IMG/VR virus record: IMGVR_UViG_3300031939_000004
Location: 1 to 53,786 of that record
Length of the DNA stretch: 53,786 nucleotides
Strand: one strand, 5' to 3'
Source: a virus
Lineage: Duplodnaviria > Caudoviricetes
Below, piece by piece: positions 2 through 45,208 of this stretch (the stretch's first letter is position 1; the number at the start of each line of letters is the position of its first letter). The notes below the pieces were generated by a model that ran no database searches, was not told the DNA's origin, and saw only the letters and a program-made list of their open reading frames with translations. The translations under genes and the position numbers were made by a program.

Positions 2-127
2 GGGCATCGCGGCGGCAGTGCCGGCGGCGACCCCGGCCAGTAGGCCGAGCGTCAGCAGGGGCAGGATCAGTCGCTTCATCGGGGGTGGCTCCTCGGGTGG
101 TGGTGGCGTGGGTCTCGAAGTAAAGCA
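2..127. repeat. 126-bp terminal direct repeat, left copy (likely circular-assembly overlap)
   Basis: Positions 2-127 are identical to 53661-53786. The gene at 53166-53738 has its promoter at 119-148, so the contig closes into a circle. Confidence 0.93.
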
Positions 128-148
128 CGCGGCGTGCTAGGAGGGCAA
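119..148 (-). promoter_or_regulatory. Conserved phage promoter, copy 1
   Basis: Minus strand TTGCCC-tcctaGCACGccgcGTGC-TTTACT, then GGAGCCACCC and the ATG of the 53738 gene across the junction. Confidence 0.75.
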
Positions 149-155
149 GGACCCT

Positions 156-184
156 GCGGGGGCGGCGTGTCGGGCCGCCCCCGC
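156..184 (-). terminator. GC-rich hairpin, putative terminator
   Basis: 11-bp inverted repeat gcgggggcggc/gccgcccccgc just after the stop at 192. Confidence 0.55.
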
Positions 185-191
185 TGGCGGG

Positions 192-776
192 TCAGGGCTG
201 GGGCAGGGCGTTGATGCGGGCGGCGACCTTCGCGATCAGCTTCTCCTGCTTCGCCGGGATCTCGGCCAGGGCGGTCTCGATGGTGAGCCGGCCGGCGGCC
301 ACCGCCAGGACCAGGCGGCTGGCGTGCTTGGCGTCGTGGCCCGGCAGGTAGCTGCCCTTGCCGGTCTTGGCCTCGCCGCAGCAGGCGCACCGGCCGGCGG
401 GCTTGGCGGGCGCGACCTCGACGGGCGCCTCCTTGACGGCGGCAGCCTCGGCCACGACCTCGGCCTCCTCGCGGCTGGCCGGCGCCTCGGCCACGAGGTC
501 GGCCACCATCCAGGTGGTCGCCCCGCCCTGGCTCGGGGAGACGGTGCCATCGGTGAACTGGACCACGATCCGGACGTTGCGCTCGCCGTACCCCCGGCGG
601 GGCTGGACGTACTCGCTGCCGGCGACGGTGCGGAGGGTGGTGCCGGTCTTGGTCGTGGCGAGCGCGGCGAACTGCGGGTTGGCCGGGCAGTCGTTGGTCA
701 GGACGACGTCGCCGGGGCGCAGGGCCTTGGTGGTGACGCGGCGGATCTTGGTGCCGCGGGTGTAGGTGGCGTTCAT
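192..776 (-). CDS. Hypothetical protein with C-terminal CxCxG...GHDA putative Zn-binding motif
   Basis: ATG at 776 preceded by GGAGCCACCC; motif CACCGEAKTGKGSYLPGHDAK. Confidence 0.75.
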   Translation of the reverse strand: MNATYTRGTKIRRVTTKALRPGDVVLTNDCPANPQFAALATTKTGTTLRTVAGSEYVQPRRGYGERNVRIVVQFTDGTVSPSQGGATTWMVADLVAEAPASREEAEVVAEAAAVKEAPVEVAPAKPAGRCACCGEAKTGKGSYLPGHDAKHASRLVLAVAAGRLTIETALAEIPAKQEKLIAKVAARINALPQP

Positions 777-825
777 GAGGGTGGCTCCTCGGTTTCGGTG
801 GGCGGCCCGTCCGCCCTGTACCAAA

Positions 826-855
826 AGTAAACCACACCACGTGCCAGGGGCGCAA
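826..855 (-). promoter_or_regulatory. Conserved phage promoter, copy 2
   Basis: TTGCGC-ccctgGCACGtggtGTGG-TTTACT. Confidence 0.78.
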
Positions 856-873
856 GTTCGAGGGCGCGGCGTG

Positions 874-1212
874 TCACCCGACCACTCGCAGGCCGCGGTG
901 CTGGACCGTCTGCCGGCGCACCTGCTCCAGCCGGGCCGCCGCGGGCTGGATCCGCTCGCCCCGCGGCGCCGGGTAGCCGTCCGGGTAACGCCGGGTCGAG
1001 GCGCGGGACGGGCGCATCTGGGCGTCGTAGTAGTCGACGCGCTCGGCCGAGCACTGCGGGCAGGTCAGCGTCCGGCGGTACTCGACGACCCGGCCCCCGG
1101 CGCCCAGGGCGATGTCGTAGTGGCCGTCGAACGCCCACGGGTGGTGCACCCCGCGGCAGTTCAGGAAGCTGCCGTTGTAGCTGTCGATCGAGCCGTCGTG
1201 GCGGGTGGGCAT
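874..1212 (-). CDS. Hypothetical Zn-ribbon-like protein
   Basis: MPTRHDG... with GAGGA RBS; CRGVHH and CPQC motifs. Confidence 0.65.
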   Translation of the reverse strand: MPTRHDGSIDSYNGSFLNCRGVHHPWAFDGHYDIALGAGGRVVEYRRTLTCPQCSAERVDYYDAQMRPSRASTRRYPDGYPAPRGERIQPAAARLEQVRRQTVQHRGLRVVG

Positions 1213-1240
1213 GGTGGGTCCTCTCGGTAGGGCGGGCAAG

Positions 1241-1284
1241 GGGCCGCCCCCGCCACCTCGGGGGAAGTGTGACGGGGGCGGCCC
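1241..1284 (-). terminator. GC-rich hairpin
   Basis: 12-bp inverted repeat gggccgcccccg/cgggggcggccc. Confidence 0.5.
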
Positions 1285-1319
1285 GGGTCCGGGGCGGTGG
1301 GGAAGTCCCACCCCGGGGG

Positions 1320-1538
1320 TCAGATGGGCAGGGTGTGGAGGGCGAGCAGCCGGCGTCGGACGACCAGCCGGTGCCGGGCCCGGTACATCTGGCGCTGGCG
1401 CTCGCGCTCGGTGCCGGCGCCGGGGCAGTCGACCGAGCCCCGGCCGTAGCACCCGTAGTGGCCGCAGCCGGGGTCCACGTGGGTGCAGTAGCAGCCCCGC
1501 CGGCAGACCGCGCAGGTCCGGGCCGGGTCCGGGTTCAC
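1320..1538 (-). CDS. Small Cys-rich hypothetical protein
   Basis: 7 Cys in 72 aa; GTGA overlap with the upstream gene. Confidence 0.55.
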   Translation of the reverse strand: MNPDPARTCAVCRRGCYCTHVDPGCGHYGCYGRGSVDCPGAGTERERQRQMYRARHRLVVRRRLLALHTLPI

Positions 1539-1762
1539 CGGGCGCCCAGGTACTTGAACTGGCGACCGTTCCAGGCGTAGGCGGCCCGGGCGCCGGTCTT
1601 GGTGTCGCGGAACACGACCTCGTTGTCGGCGTAGACCGTGGCGCGGGTGTCGGCCCAGGAGCGGGCGCTGACCCGCAGCCGGGCGAGCTGCATCCCGTGG
1701 TCCGCGGGGCTGGCCAGCAGCTCAGCGATCCGGGCGGGGACGGGGCGGGGCGTGGTGGGCAT
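1535..1762 (-). CDS. Hypothetical protein, leaderless
   Basis: ATG 6 nt downstream of the promoter hexamer TTGGAT. Confidence 0.6.
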   Translation of the reverse strand: MPTTPRPVPARIAELLASPADHGMQLARLRVSARSWADTRATVYADNEVVFRDTKTGARAAYAWNGRQFKYLGAR

Positions 1763-1768
1763 AGGACT

Positions 1769-1797
1769 ATCCAAGCAGTGCCTTGCGTTCAGCGCAA
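1769..1797 (-). promoter_or_regulatory. Conserved phage promoter, copy 3 (leaderless)
   Basis: TTGCGC-N17-TTGGAT-agtcct-ATG, with TGC directly before the hexamer. Confidence 0.7.
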
Positions 1798-1814
1798 GTA
1801 TCCGCGCGGCGTGT

Positions 1815-4784: not shown

Positions 4785-5215
4785 ACGGGGCTCCTCTTGC
4801 CGGTCCTGGCGTCGGCAGCCAAGATCCATGCGTGCCAGTAAAGCACGGGCATCTCCAGGGCCGAGGCGATCTGGAGTTCGAGCGTGGCGCCGCGGGACTG
4901 GCGGATTCCGCTGGGGGTGACCGTGGCGACGGCGTTGCAGGTCAGCAGCCCGCCGATGGCGCCGCGGACGGCGCTGTACCAGTCGCACTGGGGCTGCTGG
5001 GCGATCGGGGGCTCGGCCGGCGAGATCACCCGGTAGCCACGGCCACGCAAAGAGGCAGCAGCCTGGTGGAACTCGGCGAAGTTGAGCCCGGGGTAGCCCG
5101 ACATCGGGCCGCACAGATAGATCTGCCAGGCGTTCGGGCCGCGGGAACCGCCGAACACTCGGGCCCGGTCGCGCTCCATCACGCGCTCAGCGGCGCGCCG
5201 TTCGATCTGGTCCAT
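4781..5215 (-). CDS. DUF4406 / nucleoside deoxyribosyltransferase-like protein
   Basis: IYLCGPMSG..LNF..F, VISPAE and SRGATLE motifs. Confidence 0.75.
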   Translation of the reverse strand: MDQIERRAAERVMERDRARVFGGSRGPNAWQIYLCGPMSGYPGLNFAEFHQAAASLRGRGYRVISPAEPPIAQQPQCDWYSAVRGAIGGLLTCNAVATVTPSGIRQSRGATLELQIASALEMPVLYWHAWILAADARTGKRSPV

Positions 5216-5224
5216 CGTGCTACG

Positions 5225-5395
5225 CTAGCAGGGCAGCTCCAGCTGACCCGGTACCGGAACCGGGACCCGAAGCCGCTCCAGCTCGACCAGCGCCTCCACC
5301 AGCTCCGGCACGTGTTGGTACAGCGCCAGCACGACAGCACGAAGCTGCGCCGGGTTCAGCCGGCGCAGCTCGCGCTTGCACTCCTGCGGGGTCAC
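5225..5395 (-). CDS. Small hypothetical protein
   Basis: GTGA-coupled ORF filling an operon gap. Confidence 0.45.
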   Translation of the reverse strand: MTPQECKRELRRLNPAQLRAVVLALYQHVPELVEALVELERLRVPVPVPGQLELPC

Positions 5396-5730
5396 GCGAC
5401 CAGCCGGCGCCGGTTGCCCAGCCGCTCGCGGATGGCCGCGTTCCGCCTGGGCGCGTCGAACCCCCACACCCGGCCGGCGCGGATCACGTCGACGGTGCGG
5501 TACCGGTTGCCGCCGGGTGGGTGGCTCGCCTCCCGGCCGCACAGATCGTAGACCGGGCAGGAGTCGCAGACCTGCACCGCCTGGGCCCACCGAGCCAGCC
5601 GGGCCTCGCGGCCGGCCGCGTCGTGCGGGTGCTGCATCTCGCCCGGCAGGTCGACGTCCCAGGTCCGAGGCGGCAGCGTCGGGTGGTCGTGGCAGGCCGC
5701 CCGACGCTGCCAGCTGGAGTCAGTAGCCAC
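5392..5730 (-). CDS. WhiB-family transcription factor
   Basis: W..RAAC ... VCDSCPV..LC (four Cys) and a GRVWG turn. Confidence 0.78.
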   Translation of the reverse strand: MATDSSWQRRAACHDHPTLPPRTWDVDLPGEMQHPHDAAGREARLARWAQAVQVCDSCPVYDLCGREASHPPGGNRYRTVDVIRAGRVWGFDAPRRNAAIRERLGNRRRLVA

Positions 5731-6223
5731 TGGACCCGAAGCCTCGCGTGCCGCGCTCGTCGGGGGACACCAACACGTCGGTGCTCTCGGATCGGACCCG
5801 GACGATCGGGTGCAGGACCAGCTGCGCCAGCCGCTCACCCACAGCCACATCCACAGGTGTGGACGACAGGTTCCACACCCCGGCGTAGATCGGCCCGATG
5901 TACCCGTTGTCGATCACCGCCTCGTTGACCAGCAGCCCGCGGCGCCGCAGGGTCGAGCTGCGGCCGGTGATCCGGCCCCAGTAACCCGTCGGCAGCCGCA
6001 GCCGCAGCCCCGACTCGACGTCGACGAACTGGCCCGGCTCGATCCGGACCGCCTCGCTGACGAACAGGTCGAGCCCGGCGTCGCCGGTATGCACCTGCAT
6101 CGGCATCTGCGCATCGGGGTCGTCCAGGGCAACCTGTAGCACCGGCAGGTGCGGCGGGACGTCGATGGTCGTCCACGAGCCCTGGGTACGCAGCTGAACG
6201 CGTGGTTGGTCCTGCTCGCTCAT
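5720..6223 (-). CDS. dut: Trimeric dUTPase
   Basis: All five motifs: AGLDL, GRSS, VIDNGYIG, ERLAQL, RGTRGFGSSG. Confidence 0.92.
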   Translation of the reverse strand: MSEQDQPRVQLRTQGSWTTIDVPPHLPVLQVALDDPDAQMPMQVHTGDAGLDLFVSEAVRIEPGQFVDVESGLRLRLPTGYWGRITGRSSTLRRRGLLVNEAVIDNGYIGPIYAGVWNLSSTPVDVAVGERLAQLVLHPIVRVRSESTDVLVSPDERGTRGFGSSGY

Positions 6224-6823: not shown

Positions 6824-7369
6824 TCAGACGCCCGGCCAGGCACCGACCTCGCGGACTCGCTGGGCCATCTTGGTGTACACGGCGATGTCGTGCCAGGTGT
6901 CGTCGGACGGGCGCCGGCCCTCCTTGATCGCGCCCATCACCCGCCCGACCTTGCCGGCGACGTAGAACGCGATCCCCAGCTCGGCCAGGGCGCCCTCGTC
7001 GGCCTTCTGCTCGACCGACCAGCCGGCGACGTCGGCGATCTGCCGGCCGAGGTCGATCAGGTCGGTGGAGCTGTACTCGACGGCCTTCGGCACGACCCCC
7101 GTGATCTCCTCGTCCACCCGGCGGTACCACCAGCGCTCTAGCTCGGCCGCCATCAGGCTGTGCTGCGCCTCCCGGGCGGCCTCCGCATCCACGAGAGCCT
7201 GGCTGCGGGCCGACAGGCCGGCCAGGGCGTCCGAGGCGCTCGGAGGGGCTCCCGTGGCAGCGACGGGCCCATGGAAGCGCGGGTGCGCCGGGCAGTGATC
7301 GGACGAGCAGGCGTGCAGCCCGTCGTGATTGTGCGCCAGGCGGGTGGTGCCGGGCGGCAGTGGGGTCAT
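6824..7369 (-). CDS. Putative all-alpha NTP pyrophosphatase-like protein (DUF1599/Nmad-like)
   Basis: K..EY ... K..R ... DDTWHDIAVY pattern; ATGA-coupled to purZ0. Confidence 0.55.
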   Translation of the reverse strand: MTPLPPGTTRLAHNHDGLHACSSDHCPAHPRFHGPVAATGAPPSASDALAGLSARSQALVDAEAAREAQHSLMAAELERWWYRRVDEEITGVVPKAVEYSSTDLIDLGRQIADVAGWSVEQKADEGALAELGIAFYVAGKVGRVMGAIKEGRRPSDDTWHDIAVYTKMAQRVREVGAWPGV

Positions 7370-8436
7370 CGGGCCTCTCCTCGCAGGACGATCTGGTCGG
7401 CAACGCGCGGGCCGGTCCCGACGACGGTGACCTCGGCCCCGGTGTCGCGCTCGACCCGCTCGACGAAGTCCCAGCCGGCCGAGGTGATCTTGTCGGCGCC
7501 GGTGGCGTCGGCGTCCACCGCGCCGGGCAGCTGGTCCAGCATCGACAGGTGGATGGTAGCGCCCGGGTTCGCCCGGATCGCCCGTTCGGCGAGTTCGCCG
7601 TCCCACAGGCCGACCCGGCGTGGCTTCTTGGTGACGGTGGTCAGCTCGACCGGCAGGCCCAGCTCCTCCCAGCTGGTCTCGTCCTTCATCGGGCCGGAGT
7701 TGCCGGCGACCCGGATCGGGTAGACCCGCATGCAGGCCAGGATGGAGATGTCCGAGACGGCCCAGGGCGAGACCCCAGCCATGGCGGCGAAGTCGACGGC
7801 CCGGCAGTCGGACGAGGTGCACTGCGGGTAGAAGCCGGCGTGCAGGCCGAGCCCATAGCCCTGGGTGCCCTCGATCACGACCACCTCGTGCGGGTTGGCG
7901 GCGGCGAACTGCAGCTCGCTGGAAGTGTCGTGGGTCGGCACCGGGAACAGGTCACGCTCGACCGCGGACAGCTTGTGCCACCACTGCCCGTAGGTCCGGG
8001 CGGAGCGCAGCAGCCGGGCCGCACGGGCAGCGCCGATGCCCTTACCGGTGGAGCCGATCGCACCGACCAGGCCGTGCTCGTGCTCGACGGCCTTGTGCTC
8101 GTCCTCCAGGACGGTGGCCTGGTCGTCGATACGCAGCTCGACCCGGACGTCGGCCGCGCGCAGCTGCTCCAGCTCGCTGCGCAGCACCGGCGGGTCGATC
8201 TCGCTGCCGGCGGAGATCACGCAGGTGACGCTGGGGTGGTCGGCGACGGCTCCGACCGGGACGGTACGTAGCGGCCAGGCTCGGCCGGTCTTGTCGTAGG
8301 CGGTGTGGCCGGCGTTGGGGCCGGCGACTCGGACGTTCCAGACGTGGCGGTCTTGGGTCCGCTCGATGACGCCCGCGGTTGCGGCGCCCTTCGCTTCGGA
8401 TCCGTACTGACCACCGACGACGATCACTAGGCTCAT
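7366..8436 (-). CDS. purZ: PurZ0-type N6-succino-2-amino-dAMP synthetase (PurA homolog)
   Basis: GGQYGSEAKG (Ser in place of the PurA catalytic Asp13), RVAGPNAGH, IEGTQG, YPQCTS, TTVTKKPRRVG; SMLD keeps the GTP-specifying Asp. Confidence 0.88.
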   Translation of the reverse strand: MSLVIVVGGQYGSEAKGAATAGVIERTQDRHVWNVRVAGPNAGHTAYDKTGRAWPLRTVPVGAVADHPSVTCVISAGSEIDPPVLRSELEQLRAADVRVELRIDDQATVLEDEHKAVEHEHGLVGAIGSTGKGIGAARAARLLRSARTYGQWWHKLSAVERDLFPVPTHDTSSELQFAAANPHEVVVIEGTQGYGLGLHAGFYPQCTSSDCRAVDFAAMAGVSPWAVSDISILACMRVYPIRVAGNSGPMKDETSWEELGLPVELTTVTKKPRRVGLWDGELAERAIRANPGATIHLSMLDQLPGAVDADATGADKITSAGWDFVERVERDTGAEVTVVGTGPRVADQIVLRGEAR

Positions 8437-8443: not shown

Positions 8444-8453
8444 AGCCAAGCAC
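8444..8453 (-). promoter_or_regulatory. Leaderless extended -10 element of purZ0 (GTGC-TTGGCT)
   Basis: TTGGCT lies 7 nt before the ATG at 8436; no clear -35. Confidence 0.6.
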
Positions 8454-8818: not shown

Positions 8819-8862
8819 GGGGTGGCTCCCTTGATTGGCGCCCCGGCGGGGCGTGTACTCAA

Positions 8863-8892
8863 AGTAAACCACAGCTCGTGCTACCCGCGCAA
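8863..8892 (-). promoter_or_regulatory. Conserved phage promoter, copy 4
   Basis: TTGCGC-gggtaGCACGagctGTGG-TTTACT. Confidence 0.78.
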
Positions 8893-10336: not shown

Positions 10337-10357
10337 GCTCTCCAGTCAAGCACGGGA

Positions 10358-11249: not shown

Positions 11250-11297
11250 CGGGTGGCTCCGATCTGGTGGGCGGGGGCGGTTCCCTCGCGTACCAAA

Positions 11298-11327
11298 AGT
11301 AAACCACGGCCCGTGCCAGGAGCGCAA
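11298..11327 (-). promoter_or_regulatory. Conserved phage promoter, copy 5
   Basis: TTGCGC-tcctgGCACGggccGTGG-TTTACT. Confidence 0.78.
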
Positions 11328-12096: not shown

Positions 12097-12126
12097 AGCA
12101 AACCACGGGGCGTGCTCGGGAAGCAA
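12097..12126 (-). promoter_or_regulatory. Conserved phage promoter, copy 6
   Basis: TTGCTT-cccgaGCACGccccGTGG-TTTGCT; no TA dinucleotide is available in the -10 region. Confidence 0.75.
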
Positions 12127-12142
12127 GCACGCCCCGCGGGTG

Positions 12143-13072: not shown

Positions 13073-13102
13073 AGTAAACCACGCCCCGTGCTCGGAGCGC
13101 AA
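13073..13102 (-). promoter_or_regulatory. Conserved phage promoter, copy 7
   Basis: TTGCGC-tccgaGCACGgggcGTGG-TTTACT. Confidence 0.78.
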
Positions 13103-14381: not shown

Positions 14382-14416
14382 GCCCGCAGCCAAGCAGACG
14401 GGCCTGAGCCGGCGCC

Positions 14417-16881: not shown

Positions 16882-17162
16882 AGGTCGATCCGGCCGATCG
16901 TGGTGCGCAGGCGGTAGACCAGCGCGTCGGCGTGCTGGATCTCGGTGCGCAGTCGGTTGGCGACCACGCTGGCCGGCGCCGGCTCGGAGACGGCGGCCGA
17001 GACCGGCGGGGCGGGCTGGGGCTGCTCGGGCCGCAGCACCGGCGAGATGTGGTCCAGCAGGTACTGGATCGTGGTGTCCATCTCGTCGATCGTGGCGGCC
17101 AACCGATCCAGCTCGCCGGGGACGGCGGGCGTGATCTCGGGGTTGGGCGTGGGCTGGGTCAT
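16878..17162 (-). CDS. Hypothetical coiled-coil protein
   Basis: ATGA overlap with the polymerase stop codon. Confidence 0.6.
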   Translation of the reverse strand: MTQPTPNPEITPAVPGELDRLAATIDEMDTTIQYLLDHISPVLRPEQPQPAPPVSAAVSEPAPASVVANRLRTEIQHADALVYRLRTTIGRIDL

Positions 17163-19141
17163 TCGAGCCACCTTCCATGGTCGATCTTCATTGGACAGCC
17201 GAAGTAGGCGCTTGCCATCTCAGCACCCCGCTGCGCCAGTTGCGGGACGAGCACGTCCCCGACCTCGGTCGGGAGATACAGCACTGCGGAGTCGTGCACG
17301 GTCAGGACCAGCCCGCCGGCCGGGTGCCACTCGCGGGTCTGCAGCTCGACGTCGTTCAGCCACTCGGTCACGAACTCGGCCAGCGAGCCCTGGACGATCC
17401 GGTTCCAGCCGGATCTCGCGTAGTCCCGGGGGCCGAGGTAGGTGTAGCGGCCACTCACCAGCCGCAGCCGGCGCTGATACTCGAACTCGCGCATCCGGCC
17501 GTAGTACATGTCGCCGAACTCGGGGTAGGTGTCGCGCCATGCGTAGACGGCACGCTTGCACTCCCCCAGGGGCCACTCCAACTCGGCCTGCTTACGGAGG
17601 GTGCCCTGGAACGTCTCGGCGCCGATCCAGAAGATCGACCCGAAGGTCAGCCGCTTGGCGATGTCGCGCATCCGCTTCCACTCGACCGGCCCGACGTCGT
17701 CCTTGGTCGTCTTAAACACGCTCTCGGTGGTCACCGAGTGCAGGTCGGCGCCCTCGGCCAGCATGGTGTTCATCCGCTCGCAGCCGGCGAGGTGGGAGGC
17801 GACCCGCAGCTCGGCCTGGCTCAGGTCCAGGTTGTAGGCGGCCCAGCCGTCGATCGCGCCGGGCCCGTCGAAGAACATCAGGCGCGGGTGGTCGACGCCC
17901 TCGATCCCGCTGCCCTTGTCCATCTTCGGCACGGCCTGGAGTTGTACCCTGCCAACTGCCATCCGGCCGGACTTGACGTGCGCCTGCTTGTATTCGGTGC
18001 GCAGCCGGCCGTCCGGCCCGTTCAGCGCGGGGTAGCCCTCGTACCACATGCTCAGCGCGGTCTGCATCTTGCGATACTGGCCCCACTCGACGGCGTACGG
18101 CACGCCGGTCTTGGCCCAGAACGTGGCCTCGGTCTTGTCGACCGGCCGCTCCTCGATCCACTCGTCGCCCTTGCGGATCTTGCGCGGCTTGCAGCCCTGC
18201 CGGTCGTAGAACCAGTGCGCCGCGGTGTCGACGGTGGGTTCGACGCCCCAGGCGCGGCGGAGCTTCTCGCGCAGCGGCGCCATCTGCGCCCGGATCTTCT
18301 CGGCTTCGGCCAGCGACCGCTTGGCGTGGTAGGGCACCCCGCGCTGCTCGATCCGGTACAGGGTGCGCAGGGTCCGGTGGCGCAGGGCGAGCCCGGCCAC
18401 CTCCACCGGGGACATCTCCGCGCCGCGCAGGACGCCATCGGGTGACTCGTGACCATAGACCCGGCTGCGCTGGTGCAGCCACAGTCGGAGCGTTTGGTCG
18501 GCGTCGCGTCGGGCGTACGGCTCCATGGTCCCCCAGGGGACGAGGTCGTAGCGCTTCCGGCCGTCCAGGACCTTCTTCAGCGCGTTCTGCTCGGCGCGCT
18601 CGTCCTCGCCCCACAGCCGCTGGGCGGTGGCTTTCAGCGCGACCAGCTTGGTCGGGTCCAGCTCCTTGGCGACCAACATGGTGTCCCAGGCCAGCGCGGG
18701 CTCCAGGTCGATCCCGCCTCCGCCGGTGCCGTCGCCGAACGAGCGGACCCCGGCGCGCAGCATGGTCAGGTCGAATTTCGCGTTGTGCATGACCAGCCGG
18801 CGCCGGCTCAGCCAGCCGGTCAGCTCGTCCCATGCCTGCCGGTCCAGGTTGGGGTCCTCGAACAGGTCGCCGAGGGCGAACAGCGAGGTCTGCTCCTGGC
18901 CGGCTGCCTTGCGGTCCATCTTGGCGGGGCGCTCGCCCTTGTCCTCCCAGCGCTCCTGGTCGAACGGGAAGGCGCGGGTAATCTGCCGGCCTCGGCCGCC
19001 GTGCTCGCCCTGCTCGTAGTAGCTGATCGAGACGACCGCGACTCGGGCACCGTCGTCGGGGTGCAGCCCGCTGGTCTCGGTGTCGCAGGCGACCAGGCCC
19101 CACACCTGCTCGGGCAGGCCGAGGATCGGGGTCTTGTCCAT
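17159..19141 (-). CDS. Family A DNA polymerase with 3'-5' exonuclease (DpoZ candidate)
   Basis: Exo motifs DTETSG, HNAKFD, YARRD; motif A DLSQAELR, motif B RDIAKRLTFGSIFW, motif C VHDS; leaderless (TAGGAT at 19149-19154). Confidence 0.92.
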   Translation of the reverse strand: MDKTPILGLPEQVWGLVACDTETSGLHPDDGARVAVVSISYYEQGEHGGRGRQITRAFPFDQERWEDKGERPAKMDRKAAGQEQTSLFALGDLFEDPNLDRQAWDELTGWLSRRRLVMHNAKFDLTMLRAGVRSFGDGTGGGGIDLEPALAWDTMLVAKELDPTKLVALKATAQRLWGEDERAEQNALKKVLDGRKRYDLVPWGTMEPYARRDADQTLRLWLHQRSRVYGHESPDGVLRGAEMSPVEVAGLALRHRTLRTLYRIEQRGVPYHAKRSLAEAEKIRAQMAPLREKLRRAWGVEPTVDTAAHWFYDRQGCKPRKIRKGDEWIEERPVDKTEATFWAKTGVPYAVEWGQYRKMQTALSMWYEGYPALNGPDGRLRTEYKQAHVKSGRMAVGRVQLQAVPKMDKGSGIEGVDHPRLMFFDGPGAIDGWAAYNLDLSQAELRVASHLAGCERMNTMLAEGADLHSVTTESVFKTTKDDVGPVEWKRMRDIAKRLTFGSIFWIGAETFQGTLRKQAELEWPLGECKRAVYAWRDTYPEFGDMYYGRMREFEYQRRLRLVSGRYTYLGPRDYARSGWNRIVQGSLAEFVTEWLNDVELQTREWHPAGGLVLTVHDSAVLYLPTEVGDVLVPQLAQRGAEMASAYFGCPMKIDHGRWLE

Positions 19142-19191
19142 GCCGCCCATCCTACCGGCGCCCCTTGCCGTCGAGGCACGTCGAGGCGCCG

Positions 19192-27182: not shown

Positions 27183-27212
27183 ACTAAACCACACCCCGTG
27201 CCACCAGCGCAA
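27183..27212 (-). promoter_or_regulatory. Conserved phage promoter, copy 8
   Basis: TTGCGC-tggtgGCACGgggtGTGG-TTTAGT. Confidence 0.75.
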
Positions 27213-27284: not shown

Positions 27285-27314
27285 TTGCCCGACTCGCACG
27301 GCGCGGGGTAGAAT
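27285..27314 (+). promoter_or_regulatory. Canonical SigA-type leaderless promoter of the HTH/helicase genes
   Basis: TTGCCC-gactcGCACGgcgcgggg-TAGAAT, 6 nt before the ATG at 27321. Confidence 0.75.
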
Positions 27315-27611: not shown

Positions 27612-29129
27612 ATGCAAGGCCGGAGGCTGTGCCGGCCACCCCGCCGGAGAGGAGGCGGCGTGCCGAAACGTGCGCGCGATCCCAGGGGTGGCTACCTGGT
27701 GCATCCTGCGACAGCCGGCACCGCAGCCAACCAGGGGGCGGCCACACCGCTCAAGACGGCTGACGGGCCGCCTCCTCTCCGCCCCTTTCAAGCCGAGGGC
27801 GTGCGTTGGCTGACCGAGCGCCCGCGCGCCCTGCTGGCCGACGAGATGGGCCTCGGCAAGTCGCGGCAGCTGCTGGAGTCGGCCGTCGAGCCCGTGCTCA
27901 TCGTCGCGCCGGCCATGGTGGTCGACGGCGGGAACTGGTCTGACGAGATCGCCCGCTGGACCCCCGGGATCGACGCCACCGTCACCGCCTACAGCCGGAT
28001 CATCACCCGCGAGGGCCGGAAGGTGCTCCCGCGGTTGCCGGCCGAGTTCGACCGCGACTGGGGCACCCTGATCCTGGACGAGGCGCACTACGTCAAGACC
28101 CGCAAGACCACCTGGACCAAGACGGCGCAGCAGCTCGCCGCCCGGTCGCAGGTCGTCCACCCGGCCACCGGCACCCCGCTGCCGAACTGGGCCCACGAGG
28201 CGTTCGTGCTGCTCCAGCTGGCGTACCCGGAGAAGGCGCGCCCTGGCGGCGAGCTGGGCTCGTACTGGCGCTGGGCCGAGCAGTGGTTCGACACCTCCCC
28301 GACCCGGTTCTCCAACGGCCTGCCCTCGGTCGGCCGGATGCTGGGCTGCGACCTGACCTGCCGCAAGCGCCCGGCCAGCGACCCGTGCCAGCACTACCGG
28401 GCGTTCGCCGCTGCCAACTTCGGCGACCGGATGTTGCGCCGGCTGGTCGAGGACGTGCTGGGCGACCTGCCGCCGCGGACCGAGGTCACCGTCCGCTGCC
28501 CGATGACCCCGAAGCAGGCCAAGGCATACCGGGACCTGAAGCGTGACTACCTGGCGCAGGTCGACGGGCGGGAGCTGGTCGCCTGGAACGACGCGGCCAA
28601 GAACACCCAACTGATGAAGGCGGCCACCGGGCTGGAGGTGCTCGACCCGGCGCTGCGGGGCTCGGGCAAGCTGGACCAGCTGCGGGAGCACGTCGCCGGC
28701 CGGTCCCGCCCGACGCTGGTGTTCGCCCACTTCCAAGCCACCGTCGAGGCGTGCGCGCGTGTCGCCCGGGACGCCGGGGCGGACTCGGAGTTCATCCACG
28801 GCGGGACGAGCCCCCAGCGACGCGGAGAGATCGCGGCGGCGTTCAAGCGCGGCGACCTGGGGGTGCTGGTGGGCTCGCTGGACGTGCTGGCCGAGGGCCT
28901 CACCTTCACCCAGGCCGACGTCTGCATCTTCGTGGAGAAGTCGGTCAAGACCTATCGCAACCAGCAGGCCGAGCGGCGGATCTGGCGGATGGGGCAGACC
29001 CGGCCGGTGACGGTCTACGACTACGTCACCCCCGGGTCGGTCGATGAGGGCATCCGCAAGCTGCTCGCGGAGAAAACCGACGACCAGCTGCGGACCCTCA
29101 CCGCGGCGCAGTTCGCCGCCCTGCTCTAG
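27612..29129 (+). CDS. SNF2-like (SF2) helicase
   Basis: LADEMGLGKS, LDEAH, TGTP, EGL and QAERRIWRMGQ motifs; start uncertain. Confidence 0.92.
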   Translation: MQGRRLCRPPRRRGGGVPKRARDPRGGYLVHPATAGTAANQGAATPLKTADGPPPLRPFQAEGVRWLTERPRALLADEMGLGKSRQLLESAVEPVLIVAPAMVVDGGNWSDEIARWTPGIDATVTAYSRIITREGRKVLPRLPAEFDRDWGTLILDEAHYVKTRKTTWTKTAQQLAARSQVVHPATGTPLPNWAHEAFVLLQLAYPEKARPGGELGSYWRWAEQWFDTSPTRFSNGLPSVGRMLGCDLTCRKRPASDPCQHYRAFAAANFGDRMLRRLVEDVLGDLPPRTEVTVRCPMTPKQAKAYRDLKRDYLAQVDGRELVAWNDAAKNTQLMKAATGLEVLDPALRGSGKLDQLREHVAGRSRPTLVFAHFQATVEACARVARDAGADSEFIHGGTSPQRRGEIAAAFKRGDLGVLVGSLDVLAEGLTFTQADVCIFVEKSVKTYRNQQAERRIWRMGQTRPVTVYDYVTPGSVDEGIRKLLAEKTDDQLRTLTAAQFAALL

Positions 29130-29966: not shown

Positions 29967-29996
29967 AGTGAACCACACCGCGTGCTAGGGACGCAA
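29967..29996 (-). promoter_or_regulatory. Conserved phage promoter, copy 9
   Basis: TTGCGT-ccctaGCACGcggtGTGG-TTCACT. Confidence 0.77.
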
Positions 29997-30861: not shown

Positions 30862-30891
30862 ATCTAAGCACGGCCCGTGCCTTCAGGGCAA
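30862..30891 (-). promoter_or_regulatory. Conserved phage promoter, copy 10 (leaderless)
   Basis: TTGCCC-tgaagGCACGggccGTGC-TTAGAT-agcact-ATG. Confidence 0.75.
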
Positions 30892-33593: not shown

Positions 33594-33634
33594 GCGGACA
33601 GCAAACCACGCGCGGCCCGCGCGCCCGGCTGCTT

Positions 33635-43089: not shown

Positions 43090-43532
43090 GTCCCCTGCGG
43101 TGTCAGAGCGATGGTGTAGCGTCTTGTGTCGCGGTACAGCGTGGGCGTTGCCTGGATCGTTTCGACACCGCCGGGAGTGGTGTCGGCGGGCATTCTACCC
43201 GTGACCTTCCACCCCTCCACTGCACCGAAATCGTGAGTGTAGCTCCCGTCTGCCTCCCTCCCGATCAACAGGGCGCACGCCTTGTCGCCCTGGAGCTGCG
43301 CCTGGTCGCGTCGCCGGCCGATCGCGTCCAGTTGGAACAGCAGCTCCGCGTCGGCGTCGGGAGCAGTCAGCGGCGGGCCGGAGAACCGGCCACCCGGCAG
43401 CTGGAACACCGCCAGGTAGGGGTAGGTGGGCTTCTCGACTATGTACGGGTGGTCATGCACCGACCACCCCGCCTGGCTCTTCAGCAGGGCAATCAGCGCG
43501 TTGGTCACCAGCTGCACCGGGACGATGCTCAT
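43086..43532 (-). CDS. Tail terminator
   Basis: Position; PTYPY..V and FQLD..G..R.QA motifs. Confidence 0.72.
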   Translation of the reverse strand: MSIVPVQLVTNALIALLKSQAGWSVHDHPYIVEKPTYPYLAVFQLPGGRFSGPPLTAPDADAELLFQLDAIGRRRDQAQLQGDKACALLIGREADGSYTHDFGAVEGWKVTGRMPADTTPGGVETIQATPTLYRDTRRYTIALTPQGT

Positions 43533-43981
43533 CCGGTCGAACCCCCGACCCGGACCGATCCGCCACCTTCGGCGATCAGCCGGGCGATCTCGTCCATCCG
43601 GCGCACGAAGAACTCCTCGATGAGTGGGATCGCCGGCTCGACGTGCGGGTACGGCGGCTGGTGGTAGTTGCGGCCCAGCGAGTCCTGCCCGACAAACCCG
43701 AACTCCAGCCGGCGGGCCTGCGGGCGGTTGGTCCCGACCGACACCGAGAACTCGCGCGCGGACTGCCGGGTCTGCCGGCTCCAGGACCGGCGGTAGTCGC
43801 CAGTCGGCGCGTTCGGGCCGGGCCGCCCGGAGGCGTTCGCCCGGATCTTGGTCAGCGCGAGGTCGGCCGAGTCGGACACCGCCGAGCGCATCATGGTCTC
43901 GGCCAGCGCGTTATCGGCCAGCATCCGGGCGCGCAGCCGGTCGTCCCCCAGGACTACCGCACCGACAAACGGCGAGGTCAT
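43529..43981 (-). CDS. HK97 gp10-like neck protein
   Basis: TGDYRRSW, VGTN...ARRLEFG and PYPH..PA motifs. Confidence 0.8.
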   Translation of the reverse strand: MTSPFVGAVVLGDDRLRARMLADNALAETMMRSAVSDSADLALTKIRANASGRPGPNAPTGDYRRSWSRQTRQSAREFSVSVGTNRPQARRLEFGFVGQDSLGRNYHQPPYPHVEPAIPLIEEFFVRRMDEIARLIAEGGGSVRVGGSTG

Positions 43982-44367
43982 TCGCGGGGCTCCGTCAGCG
44001 TGGCCTGCCGGGTCACGGCGAAGCTGCCGCCGGTGGGCTGGTCGACGGCCCAGTCCCGGCCGACCAGGGAAGCGTCGAGGCTGGTGGTGCAGTGGACGAC
44101 GTCGCCCCGGCGCAGCTGCAGGTCGGGATCGCCGGTGAAGTCGAACGGCAGCGCCACCCGCGCCGGCCCGGACAGCTCGTCGCCGCCGGTGATCGTCAAG
44201 ATGCAGGGCCCGTCGTACCACGGCGCGGTCTCGCCCGGGTCGAGCTGCATCGTGTCCGGGTCGAGCGTGTCGTCGTCTACCCCGCCGGGGTTGCGGGTGA
44301 CCGTGCAAGTATCGGGCATCAGCCCGGCGACGGTCCGGCGGGCGTTGGTCAGGTCAGGCGCTGCCAT
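43978..44367 (-). CDS. Head closure protein (DUF6093-like)
   Basis: LMPDTCTVTR...YDGPC. Confidence 0.72.
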   Translation of the reverse strand: MAAPDLTNARRTVAGLMPDTCTVTRNPGGVDDDTLDPDTMQLDPGETAPWYDGPCILTITGGDELSGPARVALPFDFTGDPDLQLRRGDVVHCTTSLDASLVGRDWAVDQPTGGSFAVTRQATLTEPRE

Positions 44368-44704
44368 GGCCTGCCGCCCAATCCATCAACGCGGCTTTCG
44401 CCGCCTCGCCGGTGGTGGCCCCGCCGAGCCCGCCCAGGTGGGCCAGGATCGCCTTTTCGAAGCCGGCGGGGTCCAGCTGCTCGATCGCTTGGCGCAGGAT
44501 GGCCGTGGTGTCGGCGCCGTCGAGCTGCTCGACCATCCCGCCCAGCAGCGACACGTCGACGTCGCCGCGGAACTCGACCTGGACGGCGGGGATCTCGTTC
44601 GGGGCAGCGAGCACTCGCGCGGCGGTCACCGGCGGCAGCGGCTCGCCGTCGACGGTGACACGGGGCGGCTCGCCGGTGACGATCTCAACGTGGATCTGGC
44701 GCAC
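44354..44704 (-). CDS. Hypothetical protein, leaderless
   Basis: GTG 7 nt after TATCCT (44712-44717). Confidence 0.62.
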   Translation of the reverse strand: MRQIHVEIVTGEPPRVTVDGEPLPPVTAARVLAAPNEIPAVQVEFRGDVDVSLLGGMVEQLDGADTTAILRQAIEQLDPAGFEKAILAHLGGLGGATTGEAAKAALMDWAAGHGSA

Positions 44705-44720
44705 GCCCCGGAGGATACAG

Positions 44721-44753
44721 CAACGCCCCCGACCTTGACGGCCGGGGGCGTTG
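44721..44753 (-). terminator. GC-rich hairpin
   Basis: 11-bp inverted repeat caacgcccccg/cgggggcgttg. Confidence 0.55.
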
Positions 44754-44767
44754 GCTGGCGGGGGCTG

Positions 44768-45139
44768 TCAGAACCGGCCACCCCAGAAGGCGGCGTTGCG
44801 CTCGTCCTGCTCGACCTCCCACTGGTACTGCATCTGCTGGGCCTCGGTGCCCTCCTCGAAGAACCGCTCGGCGCGAGCCTCCGCGGCGGCCTCGGCCTGG
44901 GCCTCGGCGGCCCACAGCTCGTGCGTGCCGGCCCAGTCGACGATCGTGGTGCGGGAGTTGGGGGCGTAGGTGCCGGTGCTGCCATCGGCGAAGCGGACCC
45001 GGACGGTGGAGTAGCCGTTCTCCAGGATCTCGGCGATGTCGGTCGAGCTGTACGCGCCGTCCAGGGCGATGGATACCTGCTGGCCCTTGGCGAGCAGCTC
45101 GGCGAACTGGCGGGCGGTGACGAGGCGGGTGACGAACAT
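44768..45139 (-). CDS. Moron-like hypothetical gene inside the head-tail operon
   Basis: Has its own promoter, GGAGCCACCC and hairpin. Confidence 0.72.
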   Translation of the reverse strand: MFVTRLVTARQFAELLAKGQQVSIALDGAYSSTDIAEILENGYSTVRVRFADGSTGTYAPNSRTTIVDWAGTHELWAAEAQAEAAAEARAERFFEEGTEAQQMQYQWEVEQDERNAAFWGGRF

Positions 45140-45178
45140 TTCGGGTGGCTCCTCGATGTCGGTTGGTTGCGTACTGAA

Positions 45179-45208
45179 AGTAAAGCACGCTGCTTGCCAA
45201 CCGCGCAA
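45179..45208 (-). promoter_or_regulatory. Conserved phage promoter, copy 11
   Basis: TTGCGC-ggttgGCAAGcagcGTGC-TTTACT. Confidence 0.75.

What the first reader, a model, noticed from the sequence alone, without database searches (positions are those of the whole stretch)
119..45208. Promoter family with T at the invariant -11A position: possible adaptation to transcribing Z-DNA
Seen: 11 intergenic copies of TTGC(G/C/T)(C/T)-N18-TTnnnT at 119, 826, 1769 (N17), 8863, 11298, 12097, 13073, 27183, 29967, 30862 and 45179, plus -10-only copies at 8444, 10344, 14388 and 33600. All have TGS immediately before the hexamer. Hexamers are TTTACT, TTGGAT, TTAGAT, TTGGCT, TTGACT, TTTGCT, TTCACT and TTTAGT. 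The register is fixed independently by the 17-18 bp spacer and by six leaderless genes whose start codon lies 6-7 nt after the hexamer, so -12T and -7T are kept while -11 is always T. Established: sigma70/SigA flips the non-template -11A into a tight pocket, and 2-amino substitution there impairs promoter opening in E. coli RNAP. Inference: a purZ phage whose incoming DNA has Z at every A may have evolved -11T promoters, compensated by the extended -10 and a spacer box, for its first-expressed genes, including purZ0. Caveats: -11T is normally a strong down mutation, and canonical TAnnnT elements also occur in this genome.
Basis: partly seen in the sequence, partly recalled or inferred. Interest (0 to 1): 0.92.

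Follow-up and report, generated by a model that had tools for sequence, protein, structure and literature searches.

The report
Z-genome phage promoters with -11 thymine
This soil phage, which carries the genes for replacing adenine with 2-aminoadenine in its DNA, drives nearly all its genes from promoters with T instead of the near-universal A at position -11; the same oddity recurs in several other such phages but not in the relatives without those genes that I examined, which bears on how this modified DNA gets transcribed.

Summary
All 11 listed copies of TTGCBY-N17/18-TTNNNT exist, all on the minus (coding) strand, against 0.37 expected. The four -10-only copies and the leaderless starts 6-7 nt downstream are also real, and I found three more sites.

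The window is a complete, roughly 53.7 kb phage with 72% GC. It carries a PurZ0-type synthetase, Dut-like and NDT-like genes and a family A polymerase.

The same architecture (-35, TGn, T-W-n-n-n-T) occurs in other PurZ+ phages:
- TT hexamers are frequent in Hiyaa, Galactica, Wayne, PermaG, two IMG/VR phages and cyanophage S-2L.
- In eight PurZ- actinophages, TT stays at chance level while TA families are clear.
- One complete phage retrieved by the TT motif alone proved to be PurZ+.
- At orthologous promoters, -11 toggles between A and T. G and C are almost absent.

However, PurZ+ phiVC8 and Ghobes keep -11A. TA and TT coexist within genomes, and S-2L encodes a sigma-like protein.

Verdict: this is a real promoter family. 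The -11T register is well supported. The link to Z-DNA is plausible (about 0.5) but not obligatory and not shown.

The parts
119..148 (-). Full promoter TTGCCC-N18-(TGC)TTTACT. It drives gene 53166-53738, whose ATG at 79 equals 53738 through the terminal repeat. Gap from hexamer to start codon is 39 nt.
826..855 (-). Full promoter TTGCGC-N18-(TGG)TTTACT upstream of gene 192-776. That protein is shared only with PurZ+ phages. Gap is 49 nt, with SD GGAGCC.
1769..1797 (-). Full promoter TTGCGC-N17-(TGC)TTGGAT with a leaderless ATG at 1762.
4837..4845 (-). Extended -10 only: TGC TTTACT, with an in-frame ATG at 4829 seven nt downstream (exonuclease-like gene 4107-4829/4784). Not in the finding.
5222..5230 (-). 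Canonical extended -10, TGC TAGCGT (-11A), with a leaderless ATG at 5215. The gene is the NDT/DUF4406-like (DmtZ-like) gene 4781-5215.
8444..8452 (-). Extended -10 only: TGC TTGGCT, with the leaderless ATG of purZ at 8436.
7366..8436 (-). PurZ0-type 2-aminoadenylosuccinate synthetase homologue.
   Evidence: PF00709 hit of 71.5 bits. 48% identity to Arthrobacter phage Wayne PurZ. Best PDB match is 7vf6 at 1.4e-71, and archaeal PurA (4e-46) scores above phiVC8 PurZ (1e-31).
8863..8892 (-). Full promoter TTGCGC-N18-(TGG)TTTACT upstream of gene 8528-8818.
10344..10352 (-). Extended -10 only: TGC TTGACT, with ATG at 10336 seven nt downstream. The ORF's coding statistics are doubtful.
11298..11327 (-). 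Full promoter TTGCGC-N18-(TGG)TTTACT upstream of gene 10800-11249. It is embedded in a very stable hairpin that may also terminate the upstream gene.
   Evidence: z -6.0
12097..12126 (-). Full promoter TTGCTT-N18-(TGG)TTTGCT upstream of the DUF2786 gene 11354-12058. It is embedded in a 16-bp hairpin.
   Evidence: z -5.8
13073..13102 (-). Full promoter TTGCGC-N18-(TGG)TTTACT upstream of gene 12143-13024 (DUF6011).
14388..14396 (-). Extended -10 only: TGC TTGGCT, with a leaderless ATG at 14381.
27183..27212 (-). Full promoter TTGCGC-N18-(TGG)TTTAGT upstream of gene 26552-27139. It is divergent from the canonical plus-strand promoter.
27285..27314 (+). Canonical promoter TTGCCC-N18-TAGAAT (-11A) with a leaderless ATG at 27321. 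It drives the XRE-type HTH gene 27321-27581 and the SNF2 helicase 27612-29129.
   Evidence: The homologous HTH operons of Wayne, PermaG and Parvaparticeps also have TA promoters.
27725..27754 (-). Full TT-type site TTGAGC-N18-(TGG)TTGGCT, antisense inside the 5' part of the SNF2 gene. Its function is unknown. Not in the finding.
29967..29996 (-). Full promoter TTGCGT-N18-(TGG)TTCACT upstream of gene 29616-29927.
30862..30891 (-). Full promoter TTGCCC-N18-(TGC)TTAGAT with a leaderless ATG at 30855.
33600..33608 (-). Extended -10 only: TGG TTTGCT, with a leaderless GTG at 33593 (72-aa ORF, GC3 0.93).
45179..45208 (-). Full promoter TTGCGC-N18-(TGC)TTTACT upstream of gene 44768-45139, inside the structural module.
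50177..50185 (-). Extended -10 only: TGC TTGAAT, 81 nt upstream of the scaffold-like gene 49310-50095. Not in the finding.
5720..6142 (-). dUTPase-fold gene, a candidate DutZ-type dATP/dGTP diphosphatase by position and by its distribution in PurZ+ phages only.
   Evidence: PF00692 at 5.8e-23. tblastn hits in PurZ+ genomes only. DutZ function in Wayne and Ghobes comes from PMC12884076 (passages).
6824..7369 (-). 181-aa protein directly downstream of purZ. It is shared with PurZ+ phages only and its function is unknown.
   Evidence: no Pfam or PDB sequence match
17159..19150 (-). Family A DNA polymerase with a 3'-5' exonuclease domain (DpoZ-like position). A weak MazG-like gene lies next to it at 16522-16881.

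Best explanation
The repeats are the phage's own sigma70-type promoters: a -35 TTGCGC, an 18-bp spacer, an extended -10 TGn, and the hexamer T-T-n-n-n-T. Most likely the host primary-sigma RNA polymerase reads them and starts 6-8 nt downstream. Either it starts directly on a start codon (leaderless genes), or it makes a leader of about 32-43 nt that ends in GGAGCC.

The unusual -11T is not a quirk of this genome. In a wide set of PurZ-carrying phages the -10 element is T-W-n-n-n-T, with A and T interchangeable at -11 and G or C excluded.

The reading I favour, which is inference, runs as follows. In these phages every A in the DNA is 2-aminoadenine. The 2-amino group of that base fits the sigma -11 pocket badly, so an A-coded -11 loses most of its normal advantage, and a small, non-clashing T is as good or better. 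A Z:T pair at -11 is still needed for opening. Strength is supplied by the invariant TGn (often TRTGn) and by the -35.

This is a tendency, not a rule. Some Z phages instead keep -11A within near-consensus promoters.
For: Shown in the window:
- 12 of 12 sites of the -35+TGn class are TT, against 0.17 expected.
- 6 TT sites and 1 TA site have a leaderless ATG 6-7 nt downstream.
- A canonical TAGAAT promoter has the same -35 and spacer layout.
- All sites are on the coding strand in gene-start gaps.

Shown across genomes with one uniform pattern (all TT/TA):
- PurZ+: window 12/0, Hiyaa 31/15, Galactica 29/17, G003 10/29, G006 14/1, Wayne 9/3, PermaG 4/2, Parvaparticeps 2/5, S-2L 7/3, Ghobes 0/7, phiVC8 5/10, SH-Ab15497 7/11.
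- PurZ-: Araceli 0/10, Microdon 0/7, Orla 2/4, Muddy 0/3, Molivia 5/8, Kumotta 2/1, Abidatro 0/0, VroomVroom 0/0.
- With a gene-start filter, PurZ- TT totals 4 against about 2 expected by chance. By eye, those TT hits lie in coding DNA or next to a TATAAT.

Other comparative results:
- G006, a complete DTR phage, was found through the TT motif alone and then proved PurZ+.
- S-2L shares only PurZ with the window at tblastn level. Its PurZ belongs with the Vibrio and Acinetobacter type. It still has 7 copies of TTGCGC-N15-CGTGC-TTTAAT/TTTACT upstream of small genes.
- With the hexamer left free, 154 box-anchored T....T sites have second base T 87, A 61, C 3, G 3.
- At orthologous promoters of Hiyaa-like genomes, 38 pairs split into TT-TT 18, TT-TA 17 and TA-TA 3.
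- Sigma70 region 2 is not detectable in six-frame searches of the window, Hiyaa, Wayne, PermaG, Parvaparticeps or Ghobes.

From papers (passages read):
- 2-aminopurine or G at -11 were the most damaging single changes. Purine or an abasic site were nearly neutral on a consensus extended -10 promoter (PMC1919498).
- An unsubstituted C2-H of -11A is important (PMC4496690).
Against: - phiVC8 has 8 intergenic near-consensus TGnTATAAT-type promoters, all -11A, and its TT hits are in coding DNA. It is recalled as an experimentally Z-substituted phage, and its PurZ structure is in the PDB.
- Ghobes (PurZ0) has 7 TA and no TT in the pattern. SH-Ab15497 is mostly TA.
- TA and TT coexist in most genomes. 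Hiyaa's own purZ sits behind a TA promoter, so -11Z is evidently usable.
- Most TT-bearing genomes share a replication module, so they are not independent samples. Only S-2L is clearly apart, and S-2L encodes a sigma-like protein.
- -16 and -11 covary (G/T 48, A/A 36, G/A 19, A/T 15), which hints at two classes rather than free drift.
- There is no TSS or expression data for any of these phages (one search listed no RNA holder).
- Z content is not measured for this phage.
- The -11 analogue data are for E. coli sigma70, not actinobacterial SigA with RbpA and CarD.
- I sampled only 8 PurZ- genomes, and my motif scans were seeded from PurZ+ phages.
Confidence: 0.5

Rival explanations
1. The TT promoters form a separate temporal class. 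They are intrinsically poor for host RNA polymerase and are switched on by a phage-encoded factor, such as an activator bound at the -35/spacer box or an unrecognised sigma-like or sigma-remodelling protein. Under this reading -11T has nothing to do with Z-DNA. It travels with purZ only because the regulator and purZ sit in the same phage lineages.
For: - The spacer box RGCA(A/C)G at -26..-21 is conserved. In Hiyaa-like phages it forms an inverted repeat with the -35 (cTTGC-N7-GCAAg).
- The XRE-HTH/helicase operon carries a canonical -11A promoter in the window, Wayne, PermaG and Parvaparticeps, as an immediate-early regulator gene would.
- In S-2L, a gene with Sigma70 region 1.2 (28.3 bits) and partial region 2 (23.5 bits) follows a TA promoter and precedes a run of TT promoters.
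- -16G goes with -11T.
- Window gene 52160-52816 has weak HTH and sigma70_r4_2 similarity (16.8 bits, below the cut-off).
Against: - No Sigma70_r2 is found in six genomes, and S2L_15 has no homologue in them.
- The box is absent from the TT promoters of G006 and S-2L.
- No window protein is shared by all TT-bearing phages yet absent from Ghobes and Araceli at tblastn level.
- TT and TA swap at 17 of 38 orthologous promoter pairs, which is hard to reconcile with a fixed temporal class.
- In the window, TT sites precede early, DNA-metabolism and structural operons alike.
Confidence: 0.28
2. The sites are ordinary host-read promoters. With TGn, a good -35 and the actinobacterial factors RbpA and CarD, -11T is simply tolerated. 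The trait arose once in an ancestor and is inherited along with the replication and purZ module. The association with purZ is then phylogenetic hitch-hiking plus chance.
For: - The TT-bearing actinophages share prim-pol, PolA, exonuclease and AAA_24 genes.
- Ghobes, which is PurZ+, lacks TT.
- The TT:TA ratio varies widely between close relatives, from G003 at 10/29 to G002 at 18/5.
Against: - Araceli and Microdon share the same replication module and the same GTGG extended -10 context, yet have 17 TA and 0 TT.
- S-2L, from another host phylum and with a PurZ of the other clade, also has the TT family.
- G and C are excluded at -11 (6 of 154), so the position is under selection.
Confidence: 0.12
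3. The repeats are not promoters at all. They would instead be intrinsic terminators, operator or 'stoperator' repeats, or another DNA signal.
For: - Two copies lie in very stable hairpins followed by a T-rich run (11290-11352 with z -6.0; 12089-12151 with z -5.8).
- The element GCACG-N3-YGTGS is partly palindromic.
Against: - 9 of 11 copies show no excess structure (z from -1.6 to +0.6).
- The sequence, not the pairing, is what is conserved.
- The distance to the downstream start codon is fixed (6-7 nt, or 38-49 nt), while the distance to the upstream stop varies.
- Leaderless start codons follow the hexamer in five phages.
- The layout is the same as a canonical TAGAAT promoter.
Confidence: 0.04

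Closest known systems
Extended -10 (TGn / TRTGn) sigma70/SigA promoters, including leaderless actinobacterial promoters
   Same: There is a -35 TTGnnn at 17-18 bp and TG at -15/-14. -12T and -7T are invariant. Start codons lie 6-7 nt after the hexamer, and the sites sit upstream of genes on the coding strand.
   Different: -11 is T in 12 of 12 full sites here, and A or T across related phages. Some hexamers (TTGGCT, TTTGCT) contain no A at all. The consensus and the role of -11A are taken from PMC4496690 and PMC1919498 (passages). TRTG as a Gram-positive motif is recalled.
Promoters of Z-genome phage phiVC8 (and Acinetobacter phage SH-Ab 15497)
   Same: These are PurZ phages whose promoters also always carry TGn and a strong -35. 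That fits compensation for a handicapped -10 element.
   Different: Their hexamers are near-consensus TATAAT or TAAAAT with A at -11. No intergenic TT family is present.
Promoter families of PurZ-less relatives (Streptomyces phages Araceli and Microdon)
   Same: They share the replication module and the promoter layout TTGCRN-N14/15-GTGG-hexamer, with a leader ending in GGGGA/GGAGG.
   Different: The hexamer is TAnnnT in 17 of 17 pattern hits. No purZ is found by tblastn or PF00709.
Sigma70 promoters lacking a recognisable -10 element (Pr of Pseudomonas putida)
   Same: It is a precedent that sigma70 holoenzyme can use promoters with very poor -10 elements.
   Different: That is a single host promoter, known to me only from a search listing and abstract (PMC3526299). 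It is not a multi-copy family with conserved -12T, -7T and W at -11.
Activator-dependent phage promoters (lambda PRE with cII at TTGC repeats; T4 middle promoters with the MotA box)
   Same: A conserved element lies in or beside the -35 region, combined with a non-consensus core element.
   Different: This comparison is recalled and was not tested. Here no activator is identified, and the box is missing in two TT-bearing lineages.

Membership tests
Sigma70-family (primary sigma) extended -10 promoter | -35-like hexamer TTGnnn placed 17±1 bp upstream of the -10 hexamer | tested here: met
   12 sites have TTG(C/A)nn at 17 bp (1 site) or 18 bp (11 sites). Six or seven further sites have only the extended -10.
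Sigma70-family (primary sigma) extended -10 promoter | TG at -15/-14 | tested here: met
   All 18 unique TT sites have TGG or TGC before the hexamer.
Sigma70-family (primary sigma) extended -10 promoter | -12T and -7T | tested here: met
   Both are invariant in the window sites. Across nine genomes with a free hexamer, -12T is 160 of 198 and -7T is 164 of 198.
Sigma70-family (primary sigma) extended -10 promoter | A at -11 on the non-template strand | tested here: not met
   It is T in all 18 TT sites. Only 2 promoters in the genome have A (5222, and 27309 on the plus strand).
Sigma70-family (primary sigma) extended -10 promoter | Transcription starts 6-8 nt downstream of the hexamer | not testable with these tools
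   No RNA run was listed. Indirect support comes from start codons 6-7 nt downstream at 7 window sites and in Wayne, PermaG, Parvaparticeps and G006.
Z-genome (PurZ) phage | PurZ/PurZ0 synthetase gene | tested here: met
Z-genome (PurZ) phage | dATP-removing enzyme (DatZ, DutZ or DUF550 type) and NDT-like DmtZ | tested here: inconclusive
   A dUTPase-fold gene and a DUF4406/NDT-like gene are present next to purZ. Their specificity is not testable. Functions are known for the Wayne and Ghobes homologues (PMC12884076, passages).
Z-genome (PurZ) phage | 2-aminoadenine actually replaces adenine in virion DNA | not testable with these tools
   This is a metagenome-derived record and there are no chemical data.
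Intrinsic terminator | Stable GC-rich hairpin followed by a U-run | tested here: not met
   Only 2 of 11 copies fold far better than shuffles. The scan flagged 2 copies.
Sigma54 promoter (GG-N10-GC; consensus recalled) | Invariant GG at -24 and GC at -12 | tested here: not met
   By eye, several copies have AG instead of GG, and 7 of 11 have GTGG instead of a GC-containing -12 element. The absence of sigma54 from Actinobacteria is recalled.

The most novel reading that the evidence does not exclude
A relaxed -11 position (T or A-coded Z, never G or C) in TGn-type promoters is a general transcriptional signature of 2-aminoadenine genomes. On Z-DNA the host primary sigma can no longer profit from the -11 purine pocket, and T becomes the preferred or equal base. 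If so, Z-genomes could be predicted from promoter sequence alone, and phage promoters would show how RNA polymerase nucleates melting without -11A.
Probability: 0.35. Interest if true: 0.9.

Novelty: new variant of a known kind. Interest (0 to 1): 0.8.

Why it matters
How host RNA polymerase reads DNA in which every adenine carries an extra 2-amino group is an open question. The Z-genome literature I could search treats biosynthesis and replication only. PMC12884076 contains 'promoter' and 'transcription' zero times. PMC8342488 gives one sentence on sigma sensitivity. My searches found nothing on promoters of these phages.

-11A is the most conserved base of bacterial promoters. A multi-lineage promoter family in which it is replaced by T, found so far only in PurZ phages, gives a concrete and cheap experimental handle. 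Hiyaa/Streptomyces lividans and Wayne/Arthrobacter are culturable systems, and dZ templates can be made by PCR.

If the link holds, three things follow:
- It explains part of how Z phages stay transcribable.
- It offers a sequence signature for Z-genomes in metagenomes.
- It provides natural promoter variants for probing the sigma -11 pocket.

If the link fails, the family still points to an unrecognised phage transcription factor.

Tried and rejected
Searches for close relatives that carry the same motif:
- Exact-pattern scans of IMG/VR with the window's full motif and three looser forms gave no match or only single matches on 20, 28 and 17 stretches, all at chance level.
- megablast of 20 kb against annotated phages gave no match.
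- The capsid query gave one 7-kb contig at 56% identity without the motif.
- The portal-region protein matched only Streptomyces phage ZL12, at 37%.
- The best PolA match was 35%.
The test therefore had to be done on distant relatives.

Expression:
- The look-up of sequencing runs listed five soil DNA runs and no RNA holder.

Other readings considered and rejected:
- Sigma54 (see the membership test).
- Terminator: rejected for 9 of 11 copies.
- An alternative -10 register (TACTTT, TAATTG and the like): rejected because it is not shared by all copies, breaks the TGn and -35 spacing, and leaves 3-4 nt to the leaderless starts (by eye).
- Phage-encoded sigma: no PF04542 hit in six genomes.
- Integrase or lysogeny as an explanation for two promoter types: no integrase was found in the roughly 60 proteins scanned against Pfam. 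About 17 small ORFs were not scanned.

Further negatives and limits:
- The generic sigma70 scan found 1 site in 20 kb against 0.3 expected, so it is uninformative at 72% GC.
- BLAST with a Hiyaa TT promoter found only Hiyaa-like phages.
- Fragments G001, G002, G004, G007 and G008 (11-52% complete) carry TT families or sites but show no purZ in the part held. They are neither support nor refutation.
- A tblastx comparison of S-2L with G006 gave composition-driven noise, which I ignored.
- Literature searches for phiC31 early promoters and for promoters of Arthrobacter phages found nothing usable.
- Supplements were not opened.

Full report
**What the window is.** The 53,786-base window is a whole IMG/VR virus record that CheckV rates 100% complete. 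It has 72% GC. Bases 2-127 repeat at 53661-53786. GC3 frame analysis puts nearly all genes on the minus strand; the exception is a plus-strand pair at 27321-29129.

Pfam gives the following genes:
- large terminase, 1815-3239
- scaffold-like protein, 49310-50095
- tail and head-tail genes
- amidase, 32511-33239
- XRE-type HTH (27321-27581, plus strand) followed by an SNF2 helicase
- PD-(D/E)XK nuclease
- AAA_24 protein
- primase-polymerase
- family A polymerase, 17159-19150
- a weak MazG-like gene
- dUTPase-fold gene, 5720-6142
- NDT/DUF4406-like gene, 4781-5215

I scanned about 60 of 77 ORFs and found no sigma factor, RNA polymerase or integrase.

ORF 7366-8436 is an adenylosuccinate-synthetase homologue. 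It is 48% identical to the PurZ of Arthrobacter phage Wayne. Its best solved relative is 7vf6, and archaeal PurA scores above phiVC8 and S-2L PurZ. That is the pattern described for 'PurZ0'. That name and its literature are partly recalled; PMC12884076, read in passages, treats Wayne and Ghobes as PurZ0 phages and characterises their Dut-like and NDT-like enzymes. The phage has no close annotated relative. An actinobacterial host is inferred from GC content and from the protein matches.

**The observation.** Every coordinate in the finding checks out:
- There are 11 matches, all on the coding strand, against 0.37 expected.
- The consensus is TTGCGC-N4-RGCACG-N4-GTGS-TTTACT.
- The four -10-only copies are present, and TGS stands before every hexamer.
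- Start codons lie 6-7 nt after the hexamer at 1762, 30855, 8436 (purZ), 14381, 10336 and 33593.
- On the coding strand, TGN+TTNNNT occurs 20 times. Of these, 18 fall in the 11% of the genome that I called intergenic, and the other two are promoter positions. TGN+TANNNT occurs only four times there.

I add three sites: 4837, 27725-27754 and 50177.

The sites fall into two layouts. In one, the gap from hexamer to start codon is 38-49 nt and ends in GGAGCC. The other is leaderless.

The only canonical promoters are TGC-TAGCGT at 5222 and, on the plus strand, TTGCCC-N18-TAGAAT six nt before the HTH gene's ATG. The plus-strand promoter has the same -35, the same spacer length and a CGCACG box at the same place. 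The family's hexamer therefore occupies the true -10 position, and -11 really is T.

**Are they something else?** A terminator scan flagged two copies. Folding shows that two of the eleven copies (11298 and 12097) lie in very stable hairpins (z about -6), while nine fold no better than shuffles. Sequence conservation, the fixed distance to the downstream start and the leaderless genes all argue for promoters. The two hairpin copies probably double as terminators of the upstream gene. A sigma54 reading fails on the GG and GC positions.

**Comparison with other phages.** No relative is close enough to share the exact motif. I therefore counted one uniform pattern, TTGNNN-N14/15-TGN-T[A/T]NNNT, in 20 genomes and checked purZ in each.

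PurZ+ genomes, all TT/TA:

| Genome | TT/TA |
|---|---|
| window | 12/0 |
| Streptomyces phage Hiyaa | 31/15 |
| Galactica | 29/17 |
| IMG/VR G003 | 10/29 |
| IMG/VR G006 | 14/1 |
| Arthrobacter phage Wayne | 9/3 |
| Microbacterium phage PermaG | 4/2 |
| Curtobacterium phage Parvaparticeps | 2/5 |
| cyanophage S-2L | 7/3 |
| Gordonia phage Ghobes | 0/7 |
| Vibrio phage phiVC8 | 5/10 |
| Acinetobacter phage SH-Ab 15497 | 7/11 |

PurZ- genomes, all TT/TA:

| Genome | TT/TA |
|---|---|
| Araceli | 0/10 |
| Microdon | 0/7 |
| Orla | 2/4 |
| Muddy | 0/3 |
| Molivia | 5/8 |
| Kumotta | 2/1 |
| Abidatro | 0/0 |
| VroomVroom | 0/0 |

With a filter that requires a plausible downstream gene start, the PurZ- genomes total 4 TT against about 2 in shuffles, and 25 TA. 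The PurZ+ genomes total 100 TT and 81 TA.

By eye, the TT hits of Orla, Kumotta and Molivia lie inside coding regions or beside a TATAAT. The TT hits of phiVC8 are also in coding DNA, while its eight intergenic promoters are near-consensus TTGACA-N14-TGn-TATAAT types.

Araceli and Microdon are the most telling controls. They share the window's replication module and even the GTGG context, yet all 17 hits are TAnnnT.

**The family is shared.** The Wayne site TTGACAGCTAGGCAAGGGCCGTGATTTACT matches the window site at 11327 in 22 of 30 positions by my own count. Hiyaa-like phages carry dozens of TTGCGC-N4-RGCAAG-N3-5-GTGn-TTTAAT/TTTACT sites beside CATGn-TAnnnT sites. Leaderless ATGs 6-7 nt after TTnnnT recur in Wayne, PermaG, Parvaparticeps and G006.

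I then anchored only on the -35, the box and TG, leaving the hexamer free. Of the 154 T....T sites in nine genomes, the second base is T in 87, A in 61, C in 3 and G in 3. So -11 is constrained to A or T; it is not free.

Among Hiyaa-like genomes, I took promoters with collinear homologous downstream sequence as orthologous. The 38 pairs split into 18 TT-TT, 17 TT-TA and 3 TA-TA. The two forms therefore replace each other in evolution. Some pairs may be paralogous. There is also a -16/-11 covariation, with G going with T.

**Two results go beyond the seed lineage.**
- G006 is a complete DTR phage. I picked it out of motif-scan loci purely for its nine TT hits, and it turned out to carry purZ. 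It has 13 TTGACG-N-GTGTGG-TTTAAT promoters and no spacer box.
- S-2L, the archetypal Z phage, shares only PurZ with the window at tblastn level, and its PurZ clusters with the Vibrio and Acinetobacter type. It still has seven TTGCGC-N15-CGTGC-TTTAAT/TTTACT sites in front of its small genes S2L06-14.

**What weakens the Z reading.**
- PurZ+ phiVC8, Ghobes and, largely, SH-Ab 15497 keep -11A.
- TA and TT coexist within genomes, and Hiyaa's purZ itself follows a TA promoter.
- Most TT genomes are related by descent.
- S-2L encodes a sigma-like protein, with region 1.2 above the Pfam cut-off and partial region 2 just below it. The record has an N-run there. The gene sits behind a TA promoter and ahead of the TT run. 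In S-2L, a phage sigma could therefore explain TT.
- In the window, Wayne, PermaG and Parvaparticeps, the XRE-HTH/helicase operon has a canonical TA promoter. That is what an early activator gene would look like.

Against the factor model:
- no Sigma70 region 2 in six genomes
- no S2L_15 homologue in them
- no box in G006 or S-2L
- no protein shared specifically by TT-bearing phages
- the frequent TT/TA swaps at orthologous promoters

**Mechanism (inference).** The biochemical background comes from passages I read. On a consensus extended -10 promoter, 2-aminopurine or G at -11 were the most damaging single changes, which the authors attribute to the 2-NH2 group. Purine or an abasic site at -11 were nearly neutral (PMC1919498). 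A review states that N1 and an unsubstituted C2-H of -11A matter (PMC4496690). [quoted passage not shown]

A Z at -11 should therefore be handicapped. Promoters of Z phages could compensate in two ways:
- maximal consensus elsewhere, as in phiVC8
- giving up the purine and using a small T while keeping a Z:T pair for melting, as in the TT families

The universal TGn fits both routes. This is untested for actinobacterial SigA, and Z content is unmeasured for this phage.

**Verdict.** The promoter reading and the -11T register are well supported. The Z-adaptation idea is partly supported: the association with purZ is striking and survived one blind test, but it is neither universal nor shown to be causal. 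I found nothing in print on it.

Noticed in passing
window 2-127 and 53661-53786: There is an exact 126-bp terminal direct repeat, so the unique genome is 53,660 bp. IMG/VR labels the record 'linear'. The promoter at 119 and the first 79 bases of gene 53166-53738 lie inside the repeat.
   Followed up: yes
window 162-171, 866-875, 1806-1815, 27220-27229 (minus strand): The exact 10-mer GACACGCCGC lies 7-13 nt upstream of the -35 of four promoters. Looser copies precede 11327, 12126 and 30891. It often overlaps the stop codon of the upstream gene. Its role is unknown (an UP-like element or a regulator site?).
   Followed up: partly
window 11304-11346 and 12103-12139 (minus strand): Two promoter copies are the 3' arm of very stable hairpins (-41 and -36 kcal/mol, z about -6). 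The T-rich -10 region directly follows each hairpin. These are probable overlapping terminator-promoter modules.
   Followed up: partly
window 27725-27754 (minus strand): A full TT-type promoter lies antisense inside the 5' part of the plus-strand SNF2 helicase gene and points at the HTH gene. It may make an antisense transcript.
   Followed up: no
window 192-3239 and 50216-53738: The large terminase (1815-3239) is separated from the portal-region gene (50216-52090) by about seven small genes with three promoters of the family (1769, 826, 119). This is an unusual interruption of the packaging and head module. One of these genes (52160-52816) has two weak HTH matches.
   Followed up: partly
window 192-776 (minus strand): A 194-aa protein of unknown function has tblastn matches only in PurZ+ phages (Hiyaa, G003, Wayne, PermaG, Parvaparticeps, Ghobes). 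It has none in Araceli, Orla or phiVC8. The same distribution holds for 6824-7369, the gene after purZ.
   Followed up: partly
L225 (cyanophage S-2L MW334946.1) record 6951-7271: S2L_15 has Sigma70 region 1.2 and the first half of region 2. The record has a 6-base N-run at 6965-6970, after which an open frame continues in another phase, so the gene may be longer than annotated. A TA promoter precedes it and seven TT promoters follow it.
   Followed up: partly
L259-L261 (IMG/VR G006, 49,870 bp, DTR): This is a complete PurZ+ phage. Its early region carries 13 nearly identical TTGACG-N-GTGTGG-TTTAAT promoters, several with leaderless ATGs, and only one TA promoter.
   Followed up: partly
L141-L145 (Hiyaa), L196-L206 (G001-G004): In Hiyaa-like phages the -35 and the spacer box form an inverted repeat, cTTGC-N7-GCAAg, which looks like an operator. 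TT hexamers go preferentially with G at -16 and TA hexamers with A at -16.
   Followed up: partly
window leaders, e.g. 776-825, 8819-8862, 12059-12096: The leaders of the non-leaderless genes end in a near-identical ribosome-binding stretch, GAGGAGCCACCCC, followed by 0-2 bases and then ATG.
   Followed up: no
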